Part shown: positions 11,191-15,136 of the stretch, piece after piece
Layout of the letters: each line of letters opens with the position of its first letter
How positions within the stretch are numbered: the first letter of the stretch is position 1
From: a virus
DNA length: 64,000 nt
Strand: one strand, 5' to 3'
IMG/VR virus record: IMGVR_UViG_3300025073_000448
The notes under the pieces: generated by a model
The model's database searches: none
Told to the model about the DNA's origin: nothing
The model's input: the letters and a program-made list of their open reading frames with translations, nothing else
Program-made: the position numbers and the translations under genes

Positions 11191-13785
11191 ATGAACCTGA
11201 TCGCAGAGATAAAATCACGCATCGACTGCATTACTCTCTTTCGCAAGCTTTGGCCCAATAATTACCGTGAAGGGGGCAAGAACAACAGCCTTTGCCCGTT
11301 TCATGGAGATTCCAATGGGTCGCTCTTGGTTGAAGCGGACCACATACATTGCTTCGGGTGCGAGAAGCATCTCGACGTGATCGGCATATATCAAGAGCAC
11401 AGAGGAAAATCCGGGATAACCGGAAAAGAGATGGGGCAATTTCTCCGGGAGATTGCCAGGGAGCTTGACATCCCCCTTCCGGAGCACGCCACCACCTCCG
11501 CGAAAACAAGCAAAACAGACAAGAAGAAATCACCTCCGTCGCTGGACTATCTCATAAAAAGGTGGACTCAATTCTCTGCCACGCCACTATCCGAATCGGC
11601 CAGGAACTACCTGGAAAAAGAAAGAGCCATCCCTGGCACCGTACTCGATGAGTTGGCTCAAAAGAAGTTCATCGGGTTTTCTCCGCAGTCGGACAAGTAC
11701 GGAGAAACCATAGAATTCCCGGTTTTGGATTGGCCAGAGAAAACGCTTCTCTCTATTCAGCACGTCCCCGTTGGGGGAGGTGAAAAGAAGTTCGTAGAGC
11801 TTACCAAGCCCAAGGATGGCTTTTTTAAGCACGGGAACGGCGGGGATTTCTCCGTGATATCGGAAGCCGTTATCGACTCTCTTTCGATATATACCGCATG
11901 CAAGGACCAAATTTTCCTGGATGCTATTTCCATCCTTTCCGCGGGCTCCTATGCAAAAATAAAACTCATCCCGGTATCAGTCCCCATCTTCTTCATGGAT
12001 GACGATCCGGGCGGAATCATGGCCACCATTCTTGCCCTGCATCTTCTTGGCCCTGGAAGAGCGAAGCATGTTGATTGGTCCATTGCCGGGAATGAAGGCA
12101 AGGATGCCAATGATTTGCTGAAGAAAGGAAAGCGCGACCTCATCCTCAAAATGGTCAAAGGAGCTGTCGGAACCAAGGATGAGGATGATTTGCATCAATG
12201 CTTCAAGGGCCTGATTGCTAGGTGTCGAGAGAAGATAGATGCCAAGAAGTATAACAAGGAAGAGGGAAGGGAGAAGGATCATGTCAGGCTCAGTCGGATA
12301 GAGGCAGAGGTCAAAACGCCTTACAAGGAAATGGCGAAGAAAGACCCTGTGGCGGTGGCCACGCTTTCCTTCGAAGAGCACATGGCCGAGCTCAACAAGA
12401 TGCACGCCGTGATCATGCTCGGCGGGAAGTGCTGCATCCTCCACGAATACACCGACCCGATATCCAGAAGAGAGGACATAGATTTTTGGAGTGTCAACGA
12501 CTTTCATTACAAACACGCCCCCAGGCAGGTCTGGATTCCCAATGGAAGCGAAGGATCAAGGCAGATAGCGGCTACCAAGCTGTGGATCAAATCAAATCAG
12601 CGCAGGGAATATGACGGGCTCATTTTCGCCCCAGGAACACAGACGGAGAGATACTACAATCTATTCCGCGGCTTTGCGGTGACTCCCATCCAAGGCAGGT
12701 GGGCGCTGTTCAAGAGGCATATTGATCAAGTGATAGCCGGCGGGGATGCCGCCATATCGAAGTACATCCTGGCATGGATGGCCCACCTCCTACAACAGCC
12801 TGGTGGCGAGCGGCCGGGGACGGCTATCGTCCTTCGAGGAAAACAGGGAACGGGGAAGGGCTTCTTCGTTTCCCAGCTCGGAAAGATCCTCGGGCACCAC
12901 TTCCTGCACATTACCCAAGCATCCCACCTTACAGGAAAATTCAACTCGCACCTCAAGAGCGCCCTGCTTGTGTTCGTAGACGAGGCATTATGGGCCGGGG
13001 ACAAGCAAGGTGAATCCGTGCTCAAGGGGATTGTGACCGAGGACACTATCATGGTCGAGCACAAGGGTAAGGATACCGTCCGGATGAAAAACCATGTGAG
13101 CATCATCGTAGCGTCCAATAATGAGTGGGTTGTCCCGGCCGGACCCGAGGAAAGGAGATTCCTGGTCCTTGACGTGAAAGAGACTCACATGCAGGATCGG
13201 GAGTATTTCCAGGCGCTCTTCGATGAAATGAACAACGGCGGACGGGAGGCCATGCTGTATGATCTCCTGAATATGGGCGGGCTGGATAAGGTGGATCTTC
13301 GCACTATCCCAAGGACCGACGCGCAGCTTGATCAGATCTGCTATTCCATGACCGGGATTCAGAAATTCTGGATGGAGGTCCTCATGCGCGGGACGCTGCT
13401 TGCGGAGCACCACGAGTGGGAAGGTGTCGTTCAGACGGCGAAGCTCTACGGGGAGTATGCCGAGTTCTGCAAGACGATCAACGACCGGTATCCCCTGGCC
13501 GGGAATATGTTCACGAAGCAGCTCAAGAAGATGACTCCGGAGGGGAGTACGAAGAGGGCGAAAAAAACATTTCATCATAAGGAGGGAGAACGATATAGCA
13601 GCAAGGTGGAATGGTGTCTGTGGTTTGCAGACCTGAAAAAATGTCGGGAATCGTTTGACAAACTGATTCACAAGAGCATAATGTGGGGCGATGAAGCAGA
13701 AACGGAGACGATGGAGAAAGAGCTTACCCAAAGGAAAATAGACGCAGAGAAGGAAGAAAAGGCTAAAAAACAGCAGAAACAATAA
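11191..13785 (+). CDS. Primase-helicase (CHC2 zinc finger + TOPRIM + SF3/D5-like helicase + C-terminal domain)
   Basis: CPFHGD...HCFGC, EAVIDSLS, DDDPGG, KDANDLL, GKQGTGKG, FVDEA, IIVASNN, ERRFLV. Confidence 0.93.
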   Translation: MNLIAEIKSRIDCITLFRKLWPNNYREGGKNNSLCPFHGDSNGSLLVEADHIHCFGCEKHLDVIGIYQEHRGKSGITGKEMGQFLREIARELDIPLPEHATTSAKTSKTDKKKSPPSLDYLIKRWTQFSATPLSESARNYLEKERAIPGTVLDELAQKKFIGFSPQSDKYGETIEFPVLDWPEKTLLSIQHVPVGGGEKKFVELTKPKDGFFKHGNGGDFSVISEAVIDSLSIYTACKDQIFLDAISILSAGSYAKIKLIPVSVPIFFMDDDPGGIMATILALHLLGPGRAKHVDWSIAGNEGKDANDLLKKGKRDLILKMVKGAVGTKDEDDLHQCFKGLIARCREKIDAKKYNKEEGREKDHVRLSRIEAEVKTPYKEMAKKDPVAVATLSFEEHMAELNKMHAVIMLGGKCCILHEYTDPISRREDIDFWSVNDFHYKHAPRQVWIPNGSEGSRQIAATKLWIKSNQRREYDGLIFAPGTQTERYYNLFRGFAVTPIQGRWALFKRHIDQVIAGGDAAISKYILAWMAHLLQQPGGERPGTAIVLRGKQGTGKGFFVSQLGKILGHHFLHITQASHLTGKFNSHLKSALLVFVDEALWAGDKQGESVLKGIVTEDTIMVEHKGKDTVRMKNHVSIIVASNNEWVVPAGPEERRFLVLDVKETHMQDREYFQALFDEMNNGGREAMLYDLLNMGGLDKVDLRTIPRTDAQLDQICYSMTGIQKFWMEVLMRGTLLAEHHEWEGVVQTAKLYGEYAEFCKTINDRYPLAGNMFTKQLKKMTPEGSTKRAKKTFHHKEGERYSSKVEWCLWFADLKKCRESFDKLIHKSIMWGDEAETETMEKELTQRKIDAEKEEKAKKQQKQ

Positions 13786-13890
13786 GGGGAAAGACCGGGA
13801 GGGGAGTGGGGCACTTTCTTCTGAAGAGCAAAACAAAGATCATCAATCCATCCACGAAAATCAATTTTCTCAATAATTCCGCGAAACCAT

Positions 13891-14248
13891 TGGACCAGTT
13901 GGACCAGCTTGGTCCAGTTCAATATTTTGACCTGGACCGATACTTTCTGAAATAAATACAACACATTATGAGCAAATATACCAGTGGGCCAGTTCCTGGA
14001 GATTTTCCCCAGGAATTTTAGGAAGAGAAGAAATTAGGGAGCATGGCATGGGATACCTTCGCTCTTGTTTTCTTTTTTTATTTTCTTTTCAAGAAGGTGG
14101 GTAATCTGGCCTAATCAGTACAGATGATTGATATCATTATATAAAGTTCTGTACTGGTATATAATAATAATAATAATAATAATAATAATAAATAGAGTAA
14201 AGCAGCGTGTTTGTTGATAAAACGGATTGGGCCAGTTCTCGGACCGGT
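13891..14248. promoter_or_regulatory. Candidate replication origin: iteron-like TGG(A/G/T)CCAGT repeats around an AT-rich tract
   Basis: Copies at 13891, 13900, 13910, 13933, 13985, 14228 and 14240; non-coding and AT-rich; directly downstream of the primase. Confidence 0.55.
14161..14190 (+). repeat. (ATA)10 microsatellite
   Basis: Perfect trinucleotide run. Confidence 0.95.
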
Positions 14249-14284
14249 TCCTATTTCCAATGCACGCTTTAGCCCATTTTTTTC

Positions 14285-14312
14285 TTGCATTGCATCGTAA
14301 AAAGCATATCAT
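14285..14312 (+). promoter_or_regulatory. Sigma70-like promoter
   Basis: TTGCAT-16nt-TATCAT. Confidence 0.55.
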
Positions 14313-14381
14313 CGAATCGTCGTCACGATTTCGCACATCATGGCGGTTTTGATACACCTCAAAAAAACCAGAGAGGATTCC

Positions 14382-14522
14382 ATGAAAAATACGAGCGCAA
14401 GGCAAGGATTCAGGAGCAAGACCTGGAGCATGGCACACATCGCAACCTCTCTGGTATTCTGTGCCGAGCGGCGACCCTTGCCTTGCGCTTCTATGTTCCA
14501 TGGAGGAGCGCAAAAACCATGA
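14382..14522 (+). CDS. Putative 46-aa leader uORF, ATGA-coupled to the next gene
   Basis: GAGAGGA RBS; MKNTSARQGFRSKTWSMAHIATSLVFCAERRPLPCASMFHGGAQKP*; spans RNA element 3. Confidence 0.5.
   Translation: MKNTSARQGFRSKTWSMAHIATSLVFCAERRPLPCASMFHGGAQKP
14394..14489 (+). ncRNA. Three-way-junction RNA element 3
   Basis: Perfect 14-bp outer stem AGCGCAAGGCAAGG/CCTTGCCTTGCGCT, UUCAGG-AGCAAGA-CCUGGA hairpin, GGCACA/UGUGCC hairpin with a 22-nt loop. Confidence 0.7.
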
Positions 14523-15136
14523 ATCAGACAGTAAATCAAGGGCACTTCCAACAAATCACAGACCTCACCTTCGAATCTTCGAAGTGCAGGTTCATGATTC
14601 ACCCAAACACTAACGACCTCTATGTTTCTTTGTTCGATCTACTCAGGCTACTCGGTGCTGCGGACGGCGCAAAGCATGTGATTGGCTCATTGGAAAGAGT
14701 TCAAGACGGGGAAAGCGATGGAATCCCAACACTTTTATCTAAGCTATCAATCCAGAGATCACAAAACATGACCGGGATTCAAAGATTCTGGTTTGAAGTG
14801 CTCATGCGCGGAAGCTTGTTGATCGAAGATGCTAGTTGGATTGGAGTGGTGCCAACACGCAAGCTGTATCGAGAATACCTGGAATTTTGCAAGAAAATTG
14901 GAGAAAAATTCCCCGTAGCCAACAACATTTTCACGAAGCACATCAAGAGTCTGACATTCCATGGAAGCGTAAAACGTATTCGAAAAATATTCCATTATGT
15001 CGGGCATCATCTTCCAACATCTGAGTGGTGTTTGCGCTTCGATGATCTCGATGCATGTCGAAAAGCCTTCAATGAAGCCATTGGACGCAACATAATGTGG
15101 AGAATTACCTCCTCTGGCAGAAAAGAGGATCTGTAG
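14519..15136 (+). CDS. Fusion of a Bro-N-like N-terminus with a paralog of the primase C-terminal domain
   Basis: LYVSLFDLLRLLG (Bro-N-like, weak); C-terminal ~113 aa about half identical to the primase C-terminus (MTGIQ.FW.EVLMRG...EWCL.F.DL..CR..F...I...IMW). Confidence 0.75.
   Translation: MNQTVNQGHFQQITDLTFESSKCRFMIHPNTNDLYVSLFDLLRLLGAADGAKHVIGSLERVQDGESDGIPTLLSKLSIQRSQNMTGIQRFWFEVLMRGSLLIEDASWIGVVPTRKLYREYLEFCKKIGEKFPVANNIFTKHIKSLTFHGSVKRIRKIFHYVGHHLPTSEWCLRFDDLDACRKAFNEAIGRNIMWRITSSGRKEDL

What the first reader, a model, noticed from the sequence alone, without database searches (positions are those of the whole stretch)
13348..15136. Stand-alone duplicate of the primase C-terminal domain fused to a Bro-N-like module, just across the candidate origin
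SEEN: the primase segment from 13348 (MTGIQKFWMEVLMRG...IMW) aligns without large gaps to gene 14519 from 14769 (MTGIQRFWFEVLMRG...IMW), about half identical over ~113 aa. KNOWN: the C-terminal domain of P4 alpha primase-helicase is a winged-helix origin-binding domain. INFERENCE: the fusion may be a catalytically empty origin-binding competitor acting in copy-number control or replication exclusion, with expression gated by RNA element 3.
Basis: partly seen in the sequence, partly recalled or inferred. Interest (0 to 1): 0.78.

Follow-up and report, generated by a model that had tools for sequence, protein, structure and literature searches.

The report
Free-standing copy of primase origin-binding domain
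Just past its likely replication origin, a groundwater phage carries a small, conserved gene that joins half of a 'Bro-N' domain to an old copy of the DNA-binding winged-helix tail of its own primase-helicase. It is most likely a non-enzymatic regulator of replication start, and is an interesting variant of a known theme rather than a new kind of system.

Summary
Primase-helicase residues 720-832 (13348-13686) and residues 84-194 of the 205-aa gene at 14519-15136 are 54% identical (E 2e-44).

- **Fold:** the shared domain is a Pox_D5/P4-alpha-type winged helix.
- **Origin of the copy:** in a tree of 109 such domains, the small gene's domain is sister to the phage's own primase tail (support 99/96).
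- **Age and selection:** a second, diverged phage has the same gene in the same place, so the duplication is old. Both modules are under purifying selection, so this is not decay.
- **N-terminus:** it is homologous to Bro-N, but only to the first half.
- **Linkage:** a third relative has swapped helicase, iterons and this gene together as one cassette.
- **Expression:** the gene sits behind a covarying leader RNA with a coupled upstream ORF. The same RNA family precedes an HNH-AP2 gene here and Bro-N-plus-winged-helix genes in unrelated phages.

Origin binding, competition and copy control are all untested. My best reading (0.45) is a DNA-binding-only modulator of initiation.

This scan has noted comparable free-standing initiator domains on other DNA: a phage origin, a T1-like phage and Bodo saltans virus Bro genes.

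Verdict: a new variant of a known kind, of moderate interest.

The parts
11191..13785 (+). Primase-helicase P0001 (864 aa): DnaG-type zinc ribbon, Toprim, DUF5906/D5-type SF3 helicase and a C-terminal Pox_D5 winged helix.
   Evidence: Pfam and PHROG hits.
13348..13686 (+). Parental copy: the C-terminal winged-helix domain of the primase-helicase (aa 720-832). The linker helices from about aa 689 (13255) are probably part of the duplicated unit.
   Evidence: BLASTP; atlas shape search aligns P0002 37/44-197 to C-termini of DUF5906 proteins.
13886..13938 (.). Left iteron cluster: three direct TTGG(A/T)CCAG copies and one inverted copy, around a 13-nt block (TCAATATTTTGAC) that is identical in the related phage.
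13984..13995 (.). Single iteron copy (GTGGGCCAGTTC).
14120..14200 (.). AT-rich tract with (ATA)10 at 14161-14191; a candidate unwinding region.
   Evidence: The matching position in L001 holds a (TA)n tract.
14227..14251 (.). Right iteron pair (TTGGGCCAGTTC and CGGACCGGTTCC), about 35 nt upstream of the possible promoter of the small gene.
14285..14312 (+). Possible promoter: TTGCAT, 16 nt, TATCAT. The same arrangement is found in L001 (TTGCAT, 16 nt, TAAAAT).
   Evidence: Read from the sequence and from alignment A3. It falls below the threshold of the consensus scan, so it is inferred only.
14360..14525 (+). Structured leader RNA. It is a long branched hairpin, plus a 9-bp long-range helix between the Shine-Dalgarno region of the upstream ORF (14368-14376) and an internal loop (14446-14454).
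   Evidence: Fold z-score -3.8. 10 of 49 pairs carry compensatory double changes against L001, with 97% of cells paired; slid controls give 0-1. The covariance model R1 finds further copies. No Rfam family matches.
14382..14522 (+). Upstream ORF of 46 codons. Its TGA stop overlaps the ATG of the small gene (ATGA). The peptide is not conserved, but the position and the overlap are.
   Evidence: L001 has the equivalent ORF at 9871-10004.
14519..15136 (+). P0002, 205 aa: the stand-alone gene with no catalytic domain.
14540..14698 (+). N-terminal module (aa 8-60): the first half of a Bro-N domain (three strands and a helix). The Bro-N hallmark residues R24 and D40 are kept.
   Evidence: 77% of residues 17-46 are identical between P0002 and P0003. 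pN 0.20 against pS 0.66 over residues 13-46.
14699..14767 (+). Variable helical linker (aa 61-83). In shape it corresponds to the helices that precede the winged helix in primase-helicases.
   Evidence: pN is 0.56 over residues 47-83.
14768..15103 (+). Winged-helix domain (aa 84-195), paralogous to the primase tail.

Best explanation
P0002 is a DNA-binding-only offshoot of the phage's replication initiator. An ancestor of this phage group joined two pieces: the leader RNA plus the first half of a Bro-N gene, and the C-terminal linker plus winged helix of its own D5/P4-alpha-type primase-helicase.

The product has no primase or helicase part. I propose that its winged helix recognises the same origin region as the initiator's tail, either through the iterons or through the conserved blocks between them. 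It could also pair with that tail directly. Either way it would modulate, most likely restrain, initiator assembly at the adjacent origin.

Its dose appears to be kept low. Translation depends on an upstream ORF whose ribosome-binding site can be masked by a loop of the leader RNA.

**Shown:** paralogy, the fold class, the age and conservation of the gene, its cassette linkage, and the RNA structure.

**Inferred:** DNA target, protein partner, sign of the effect and the biological purpose (copy control, timing or exclusion).
For: 1. **Closest relative.** The best match of the P0002/P0003 profile among 1.84 billion representative proteins is the phage's own primase tail (135 bits; next unrelated primase-helicase 69 bits).
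2. **Tree.** The maximum-likelihood tree puts (P0002, P0003) as sister to (P0001, P0004/P0007) with support 99/96.
3. **Fold.** The domain is a winged helix of the Pox_D5 family. The family's solved member, the P4 alpha origin-binding domain 1ka8, is among the structural matches (Z 5.8, 76 residues aligned).
4. **Position.** The gene lies directly beyond an iteron / AT-rich / iteron region that starts about 100 nt after the primase stop. In P4 the iteron-bearing crr also lies immediately 3' of alpha.
5. **Cassette behaviour.**
   - L001-type phages have a different, AEP-like primase N-terminus. They keep the same helicase and tail (about 70% identical), a syntenic origin and P0003.
   - The relative G001 keeps the DnaG-type primase half (57% identical) and the downstream gene. 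It has another helicase, other iterons (CTGTTACC type) and an unrelated 75-aa gene in the P0002 slot.
6. **Selection.** Both modules are under purifying selection, with a free-evolving linker.
7. **DNA-contact residues.** The putative recognition helix and the basic wing residues are very similar in the paralog and the initiator (FTKQLKK against FTKHIKS; KRAKK against KRIRK).
8. **Regulation.** Tight translational control fits a dose-sensitive regulator.
Against: - No binding datum exists.
- The recognition helix of each paralog is almost unchanged between the window phage and L001, although their iterons differ (TGGNCCAG against T[A/C]ACCAG). Either other residues set specificity or the iterons are not the target.
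- The paralog has a shorter wing loop and a Q-to-H change in the helix, so its target may differ from the initiator's.
- Bro-N plus winged-helix proteins with the same leader RNA occur in unrelated phages between the terminase and portal genes, with no primase in view. The general job of the family therefore need not be replication control.
- P0002 has atypical codon composition, like the HNH-AP2 cassette (GC3 0.49 against 0.71-0.75 for its neighbours). This hints at a mobile-cassette history.
Confidence: 0.45

Rival explanations
1. P0002 is a Bro-network gene regulator or antirepressor-like switch. It uses its winged helix, and what is left of Bro-N, to bind DNA or a repressor. It would control the rightward operon that it heads, or a developmental switch. 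Its descent from the initiator tail would then be only a source of a DNA-binding module.
For: - The N-terminus is homologous to Bro-N proteins, which sources name as prophage antirepressor-like.
- The leader logic (an RNA loop complementary to the ribosome-binding site of a coupled upstream ORF) resembles the P1 c4-icd-ant circuit (my own knowledge). It recurs in front of other Bro-N genes.
- Bro-network proteins swap DNA-binding domains and often act as regulators (PMC10111431).
- The right iterons lie about 35 nt upstream of the possible promoter.
Against: - The conserved second half of Bro-N is missing.
- The winged helix is specifically the local initiator's, not the type carried by other Bro-N proteins.
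- The gene is exchanged together with the helicase and origin.
- No repressor or integrase was identified near it.
Confidence: 0.22
2. P0002 is a positive accessory factor of initiation. It would be an origin-marking or remodelling protein that helps the primase-helicase find or melt the origin, for example by pairing winged helix to winged helix.
For: It rests on the same linkage and paralogy evidence as the best explanation. Nothing in the sequence sets the sign of the effect.
Against: - Other D5-type primase-helicases, such as those of G001 and P4, work without such a paralog.
- Tight translational restraint and poor codon adaptation suit an inhibitor or switch better than a stoichiometric helper.
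Confidence: 0.15
3. P0002 is the remnant of a selfish free-standing cassette: promoter, upstream ORF, leader RNA and a Bro or homing-type gene. The cassette would have borrowed the neighbouring initiator's targeting domain, lost any nuclease part, and now persist with little benefit to the phage.
For: - The same RNA family precedes an HNH_3 plus AP2 gene in this window.
- P0002 shares that gene's low GC3.
- Earlier notes of this scan describe Bro-type nuclease genes next to D5 in Bodo saltans virus that carry the local D5 tail (unchecked here).
Against: - No nuclease domain is present.
- Both modules are under clear purifying selection, and the gene is kept at the same site in two lineages that are only 51% identical.
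- It is absent, not scattered, in the relative with another origin type.
Confidence: 0.13

Closest known systems
Origin-binding domain of phage P4 alpha primase-helicase (PDB 1ka8; Pfam Pox_D5 PF03288)
   Same: - Same winged-helix fold and the same Pfam family.
- It lies at the C-terminus of a primase plus SF3-helicase initiator.
- The iteron region lies immediately 3' of the initiator gene in both: crr in P4, 13886-14251 here.
   Different: - In P4 the domain exists only as part of the initiator. Here a second copy is a separate gene, fused to half a Bro-N domain.
- Sequence similarity to P4 alpha is marginal (hhalign E 0.004).
- DNA binding has been shown for P4 only (my own knowledge).
P4 Cnr (ORF106), the copy-number regulator that acts on alpha
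   Same: It is a small protein encoded next to the initiator gene that controls plasmid-state copy number (PMC8628076). According to the P4 literature, as I recall it, it acts through alpha's C-terminal DNA-binding domain. It is the nearest functional model for the proposed role.
   Different: - It is not homologous. BLASTP of Cnr against alpha gives E 14, and hhalign against the tail profile gives E 0.71.
- Cnr lies upstream of alpha, not across the origin.
Bro-N network proteins, including Bro-N plus D5-type winged-helix proteins (P0024, P0088, P0114)
   Same: - The N-terminal 50 residues are homologous.
- They have a D5-type winged helix at the C-terminus.
- The same leader-RNA family lies in front of P0024, and partly in front of P0114.
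- ESM Atlas neighbours are clusters with Bro-N in 99-100% and Pox_D5 in 12-66% of members (a lead only).
   Different: - P0002 and P0003 lack the second half of Bro-N and a linker of about 90 aa.
- Their winged helix groups with the local primase, not with P0024.
- P0024 and P0114 lie between the terminase and portal genes, with no primase within 8-19 kb.
P1/P7 immI circuit (c4 RNA, icd, ant)
   Same: In both, an RNA segment is complementary to the ribosome-binding site of a short ORF whose end overlaps the start of a Bro-network gene (the P1 details are from my own knowledge).
   Different: - There is no match to Rfam C4 or isrK.
- Here the complementary loop lies downstream of its target, inside the upstream ORF.
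- Action in trans is unknown.
SaPI Pri-Rep replicons and other self-loading primase-helicase origins
   Same: The origin lies directly 3' of the helicase gene, as two iteron sets flanking an AT-rich tract. Specificity resides in the helicase C-terminus (my own knowledge of the SaPI literature).
   Different: No free-standing copy of the specificity domain has been described there, as far as I know.
DNA-binding-domain-only inhibitors of replication or transposition proteins (papillomavirus E8^E2 and E2-TR, Tn5 Inh)
   Same: The concept is the same: a catalytically empty form sharing the DNA-binding or dimerisation domain damps the full-length protein (my own knowledge).
   Different: - Those forms come from the same gene by alternative starts or splicing. 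Here it is a separate, diverged paralog with an added foreign module.
- No activity data exist here.

Membership tests
Pox_D5 / P4-alpha-type C-terminal winged helix (PF03288) | A Pfam model hit at or above the gathering score. | tested here: met
   P0002 scores 22.8 bits against a cut-off of 21.4, over residues 110-145. The primase itself scores 20.4, just below the cut-off.
Pox_D5 / P4-alpha-type C-terminal winged helix (PF03288) | A winged-helix fold comparable to the solved P4 origin-binding domain. | tested here: met
   The AF2 model has pLDDT above 90 over most of residues 84-195. VIA-align gives 1ka8 Z 5.8 (76 aligned, rmsd 3.9), RFX Z 7.4 and NrS-1 tail Z 5.3. These Z values are middling, so they support the fold class rather than a close relationship.
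Pox_D5 / P4-alpha-type C-terminal winged helix (PF03288) | Sequence homology to the C-terminal domains of D5/DUF5906 primase-helicases. | tested here: met
   All 109 profile hits fall on this domain, mostly at the C-terminus of 600-950-aa primase-helicases.
Pox_D5 / P4-alpha-type C-terminal winged helix (PF03288) | Sequence-specific binding to origin iterons. | not testable with these tools
   This needs EMSA or footprinting.
Bro-N domain (PF02498) | A Pfam model hit. | tested here: not met
   No Bro-N hit at E<=1 for P0002.
Bro-N domain (PF02498) | Homology of the N-terminal strands and first helix to genuine Bro-N proteins. | tested here: met
   hhalign gives probability 95% and E 2.6e-8 for residues 8-60. 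BLASTP gives E 9e-10 to P0024, whose residues 21-113 hit Pfam Bro-N at E 3.8e-9.
Bro-N domain (PF02498) | A complete domain of about 96 aa, including the conserved second half (GGxQ, FISE, KRLNRW, EVLPxIRKTGSY). | tested here: not met
   Alignments A5 and A9 show that this half is absent from P0002 and P0003.
Iteron-type replication origin | Clustered repeats flanking an AT-rich tract next to the initiator gene, with the layout conserved in relatives. | tested here: met
   L001 has a syntenic layout with changed repeats. G001 has a different repeat set in the same place.
Iteron-type replication origin | Origin activity. | not testable with these tools
   This needs a replication assay.
c4/icd/ant-type RNA-controlled Bro gene (Rfam C4, isrK) | A match to the Rfam covariance models. 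| tested here: not met
   No hit at E<=1 in 13700-14700, and none at gathering score in the whole window.
c4/icd/ant-type RNA-controlled Bro gene (Rfam C4, isrK) | An RNA segment complementary to the ribosome-binding site of a short ORF that overlaps the start of the main gene. | tested here: met
   The 9-bp helix has 3 compensatory changes. In 4 of 5 elements, 8-10 nt of complementarity and a stop-start overlap are present.
Free-standing homing endonuclease cassette | A nuclease domain (HNH, GIY-YIG, T5orf172 or similar). | tested here: not met
   No nuclease family is found in P0002. The sister RNA element does precede an HNH_3 plus AP2 gene.

The most novel reading that the evidence does not exclude
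A class of RNA-gated Bro-network cassettes repeatedly captures the origin-binding tail of the local replication initiator. The result would be an 'anti-initiator': a paralog that pairs with, or out-competes, the initiator's winged helix. It would give the phage, or the cassette itself, control over which origins fire, including exclusion of co-infecting relatives that share the same origin type.

The leader RNA shared with HNH-AP2 genes would be a new family of cis- or trans-acting translational gates for such cassettes.
Probability: 0.2. Interest if true: 0.72.

Novelty: new variant of a known kind. Interest (0 to 1): 0.5.

Why it matters
Self-loading primase-helicases of the P4 alpha / D5 / SaPI Rep type recognise their origins through a C-terminal winged helix. 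How phages restrain or time these initiators is known in only a few cases, such as P4 Cnr.

This gene would be a natural, separately encoded and separately regulated copy of that recognition domain, exchanged together with helicase and origin as one specificity cassette. That makes it a ready-made tool for asking how origin choice and copy control work in this large initiator family. It also shows how the domain-swapping Bro network recruits local DNA-binding modules.

The associated leader RNA is not in Rfam. It links Bro-N genes and HNH-AP2 genes across unrelated phages and may be the more novel element.

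Tried and rejected
- **Word-indexed protein searches.** With P0002 this found only P0003. With the 58-sequence alignment A4 it found nothing new.
- **Viral contig and cultured-phage scans.** The scan of IMG/VR viral contigs with the P0002/P0003 alignment found no relative. tblastn of P0002 against cultured phages found only primase tails of Pseudomonas phages.
- **Sequence search of PDB chains:** nothing.
- **Is the N-terminal 83 residues a diverged copy of the helicase's last strand and helix?** A local hhalign against a 53-sequence profile of that region gave no signal (E 0.56). 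A global alignment had zero confidence there. I rejected this in favour of Bro-N homology.
- **Short 'stand-alone' tail hits from the exhaustive search.** Many begin inside helicase motifs or at internal Met residues, and so look like fragments of primase genes. The contigs of P0082 and P0059 are too short to show context, and P0088 has no DNA held. How often stand-alone copies sit next to primases therefore could not be measured.
- **The record behind L029** could not be searched for a primase.
- **P4 Cnr** is not a homolog of the tail.
- **Rfam:** no family for the leader.
- **The 75-aa gene in the G001 slot** has no significant Pfam hit, so I do not call it a CopG-like repressor.
- **Tools not offered for this window:** Complex prediction (heterodimer test) and the look-up of sequencing runs (expression).

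Full report
**1. The observation**

The + strand ORF 11191-13785 encodes an 864-aa primase-helicase, P0001. It has a DnaG-type zinc ribbon, a Toprim domain, a DUF5906/VapE-type SF3 helicase and a weak Pox_D5 hit at its C-terminus. The 205-aa gene at 14519-15136, P0002, is the one gene callers also chose on public contigs.

With full-length queries the match extends back to primase residue 689 and P0002 residue 38 (45%, E 2e-39). No third copy exists in the 64-kb window.

**2. What lies between the two copies**

The 733-nt spacer has the anatomy of an iteron origin.

| Feature | Position |
|---|---|
| Three direct TTGG(A/T)CCAG copies and one inverted copy | 13886-13938 |
| Single iteron copy | 13984-13995 |
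| AT-rich tract with (ATA)10 | 14161-14191 |
| Iteron pair | 14227-14251 |

Four of the six exact TGGNCCAGT sites in the whole window fall within 346 nt here, where about 2.2 are expected in all 64 kb. In phage P4 the iteron-bearing crr region also lies immediately 3' of the alpha primase gene. Origin function is inferred, not shown.

**3. The C-terminal domain**

- P0002 passes the Pfam gathering score for Pox_D5 (22.8 against 21.4 bits). It also gives sub-threshold hits to RFX and Cdc6 winged helices.
- An AF2 model built on a 58-sequence alignment has pLDDT above 90 over most of residues 84-195, with a winged-helix topology.
- An exhaustive structural comparison gives only winged helices at the top:

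| Match | Z |
|---|---|
| RFX | 7.4 and 7.1 |
| ORC / Cdc6 / Cdt1 | about 6 |
| P4 origin-binding domain 1ka8 | 5.8 |
| NrS-1 C-terminus | 5.3 |

- Foldseek on PDB, AFDB and BFVD agrees. It returns primase-helicase C-termini such as PhiJL001 Gp33.
- The Z values are middling. They support the fold class and, together with Pfam, family membership. They say nothing about the DNA target.

**4. Where the copy came from**

A profile of P0002 plus its ortholog was run against 1.84 billion representative proteins. It hit 109 proteins, always through this domain. By far the best hit was the phage's own primase, at 135 bits. The next hit, at 101 bits, is a C-terminal fragment of the related phage's primase, and the best unrelated primase-helicase scores 69 bits.

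A maximum-likelihood tree of the 109 domains places (P0002, P0003) as sister to (P0001, P0004/P0007). Support is 99/96 for the joint clade and 100/99 for the paralog pair. The domain was therefore copied from this lineage's own initiator, before the two phage lineages split. The paralog stem is longer than the primase stem (0.65 against 0.20), which fits a change of role after duplication.

The ESM-Atlas shape search superposes P0002 residues 37/44-197 on the C-terminal parts of DUF5906 proteins. The copied unit therefore probably includes the linker helices in front of the winged helix.

**5. The N-terminal module**

Pfam gives no Bro-N hit. However, two hits of the exhaustive search, P0024 (314 aa) and P0088 (320 aa), carry a Bro-N-type N-terminus, confirmed by Pfam for P0024 (E 3.8e-9), together with a D5-type winged helix. 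Their first 50 residues align with P0002 and P0003:

- BLASTP E 9e-10 and 3e-7.
- hhalign against a 31-sequence Bro-N profile: probability 95%, E 2.6e-8.
- tblastn of P0088 on the window: E 7e-5.

Alignments A5 and A9 show that P0002 and P0003 keep only the first half, with the hallmark Arg and Asp. They lack the strongly conserved second half and a linker of about 90 residues.

The alternative, that the N-terminus is a diverged piece of the helicase, found no support. The junction region of P0002 (LFDLLRLLG) resembles both parents: LSDLLKAMG in Bro-N and LYDLLNMGG in the primase. This may mark the recombination point, but that is speculation.

**6. Conservation and linkage**

*The ortholog.* P0003 (208 aa, 51% identical) is the only full-length relative in 5.8 billion proteins. 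It occurs in Rifle-aquifer-type groundwater metagenome contigs, about 670 nt downstream of an 849-aa primase-helicase. That enzyme has an unrelated N-terminal part that I read as an archaeo-eukaryotic-type primase. It shares the helicase and tail at about 70% identity.

*The spacer.* It is syntenic block by block. It includes an identical 13-nt block, an AT/TA repeat tract and the leader RNA, but the repeats have changed to T[A/C]ACCAG.

*Selection.* Synonymous sites are saturated between P0002 and P0003 (pS 0.66-0.79). pN is 0.20 in the Bro-N half, 0.24 in the winged helix and 0.56 in the linker. Both modules are under purifying selection, so this is not a decaying duplicate.

*The third relative.* G001 is 89 kb, estimated complete, and shares 25% of the window's 31-mers.
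- It keeps the DnaG/Toprim half of the primase (57% identical) and the gene downstream of P0002 (about 79% nucleotide identity).
- It has a different helicase part, different iterons (CTGTTACC type) and an unrelated 75-aa gene in the P0002 slot.
- It has no P0002 homolog.

Helicase plus tail, origin and P0002 thus travel as one unit. The right-hand boundary of that unit falls exactly at the end of P0002. This is the strongest indirect argument for a functional tie to the origin. Simple physical adjacency could also produce it.

**7. Expression control**

The gene is preceded by a 166-nt structured leader (14360-14525).

- The fold z-score is -3.8 here and -4.0 in L001.
- Between the two phages, 10 of 49 proposed pairs carry compensatory double changes and 97% of cells pair. 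Slid controls give 0-1.
- This includes a 9-bp long-range helix between the Shine-Dalgarno region of a 46-codon upstream ORF and an internal loop, with three compensatory changes.
- The upstream ORF's TGA stop overlaps the P0002 ATG, and the same overlap holds in L001.
- No Rfam family matches.

A covariance model of the leader finds further copies:

| Location | In front of | E-value |
|---|---|---|
| Window 5378-5534 (-) | An HNH_3 plus AP2 gene | 2.4e-10 |
| L025 | P0024 (Bro-N plus winged helix), in an unrelated phage contig | 3e-6 |
| L029 (partial match) | P0114 | 5e-4 |

In four of the five elements, an upstream ORF of 44-50 codons ends at, or within a few nucleotides of, the main start codon. 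Its ribosome-binding region has an 8-10-nt complement inside the RNA, and that sequence differs in each element.

'Gating by RNA element 3' is therefore well founded as a structure. The leader plus the Bro-N start looks like a unit inherited from the Bro-N gene family. Published work describes Bro-network genes as domain-swapping DNA-interactive proteins that sit beside replication zones and immunity RNAs in satellites (PMC10111431).

**8. Mechanism**

My best reading (0.45) is that P0002 is a DNA-binding-only modulator of initiation, acting either at the adjacent origin or on the initiator's tail, and most likely negative.

*For:* points 3, 4 and 6; near-identity of the putative recognition helix and the basic wing residues between paralog and initiator; and dose restraint.

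*Against:*
- Each paralog's helix is almost unchanged between the two phages although the iterons differ.
- The paralog's wing is shorter.
- Bro-N plus winged-helix relatives occur far from any visible primase.
- P0002 has the low GC3 of the HNH-AP2 cassette rather than that of its neighbours.

*Rivals:* a Bro-type transcriptional or antirepressor-like switch (0.22), a positive origin accessory factor (0.15), and a selfish cassette remnant (0.13).

**9. Comparison with the known**

| System | Relation to P0002 |
|---|---|
| P4 alpha origin-binding domain | Nearest structural and family relative |
| P4 Cnr | Nearest functional model, but tested here and not homologous |
| Bro-N network | Source of the N-terminal half and the leader |
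| P1 c4-icd-ant | Nearest regulatory logic, but Rfam membership is not met |

This scan's own earlier notes (unchecked by me) describe related cases: a free-standing origin-binding-domain gene beside a phage origin, a mini-paralog of a T1-like helicase, and Bro-type nuclease genes in Bodo saltans virus that carry the local D5 tail. The theme is therefore recurrent.

What is particular here is the combination:
- half a Bro-N domain plus the local initiator tail;
- a position across the origin;
- exchange as a cassette;
- a shared, covarying leader RNA.

I rate it a new variant of a known kind, with interest 0.5.

Noticed in passing
window 5378-5534 (-); L025:6046-6187; L029:8138-8215; window 14360-14525: A leader RNA family that is not in Rfam. 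It is a branched hairpin with a conserved GGAG(A/C)AAGACC-type hairpin, an upstream ORF of 44-50 codons ending at the main start codon, and a loop complementary to the upstream ORF's ribosome-binding site. It precedes P0002, an HNH_3 plus AP2 gene in this phage, and Bro-N plus winged-helix genes in unrelated phage contigs.
   Followed up: partly
L001:6780-9329 versus window 11191-13785: Related phages carry the same helicase and tail (about 70% identical) behind unrelated primase modules: one I read as archaeo-eukaryotic type in L001, against DnaG zinc ribbon plus Toprim here. The swap point is near residue 374-387.
   Followed up: partly
L024 (G001:C1:64000-75000), about 3640-4190 on the minus strand: The relative G001 has a different origin between its primase and the shared downstream gene. 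It holds many CTGTTACC/GGTAACAG repeats, a (TA)n tract, and a 75-aa gene with no significant family in the P0002 slot.
   Followed up: partly
window 14519-15136 versus its neighbours: P0002 has GC3 0.485, like the HNH-AP2 gene (0.479). The primase tail it was copied from has 0.708, and the next gene has 0.745. P0003 shows a milder dip (0.584).
   Followed up: partly
window 13919-13931 and L001 about 9427-9439: A 13-nt block, TCAATATTTTGAC, is identical in the two otherwise diverged origins. It sits between the direct and inverted iterons and is a candidate conserved protein-binding site. Some L001 iterons contain TTCACC, which resembles the P4 type-1 repeat TGTTCAC(C/A).
   Followed up: no
window 15199-15233: A perfect 18-nt tandem duplication (1.9 copies) lies inside the gene downstream of P0002. 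It encodes a repeated AEQTSQ peptide.
   Followed up: no
window 10903-11169 (+) and 10245-11066 (-): A Cro/YdaS-like HTH gene lies directly upstream of the primase, opposite a divergent leftward ORF with CxxC...HH...CxxCH (HNH-like) motifs but no Pfam hit. This is a likely early divergent promoter region. The cumulative GC skew minimum lies at about 9-11 kb.
   Followed up: no
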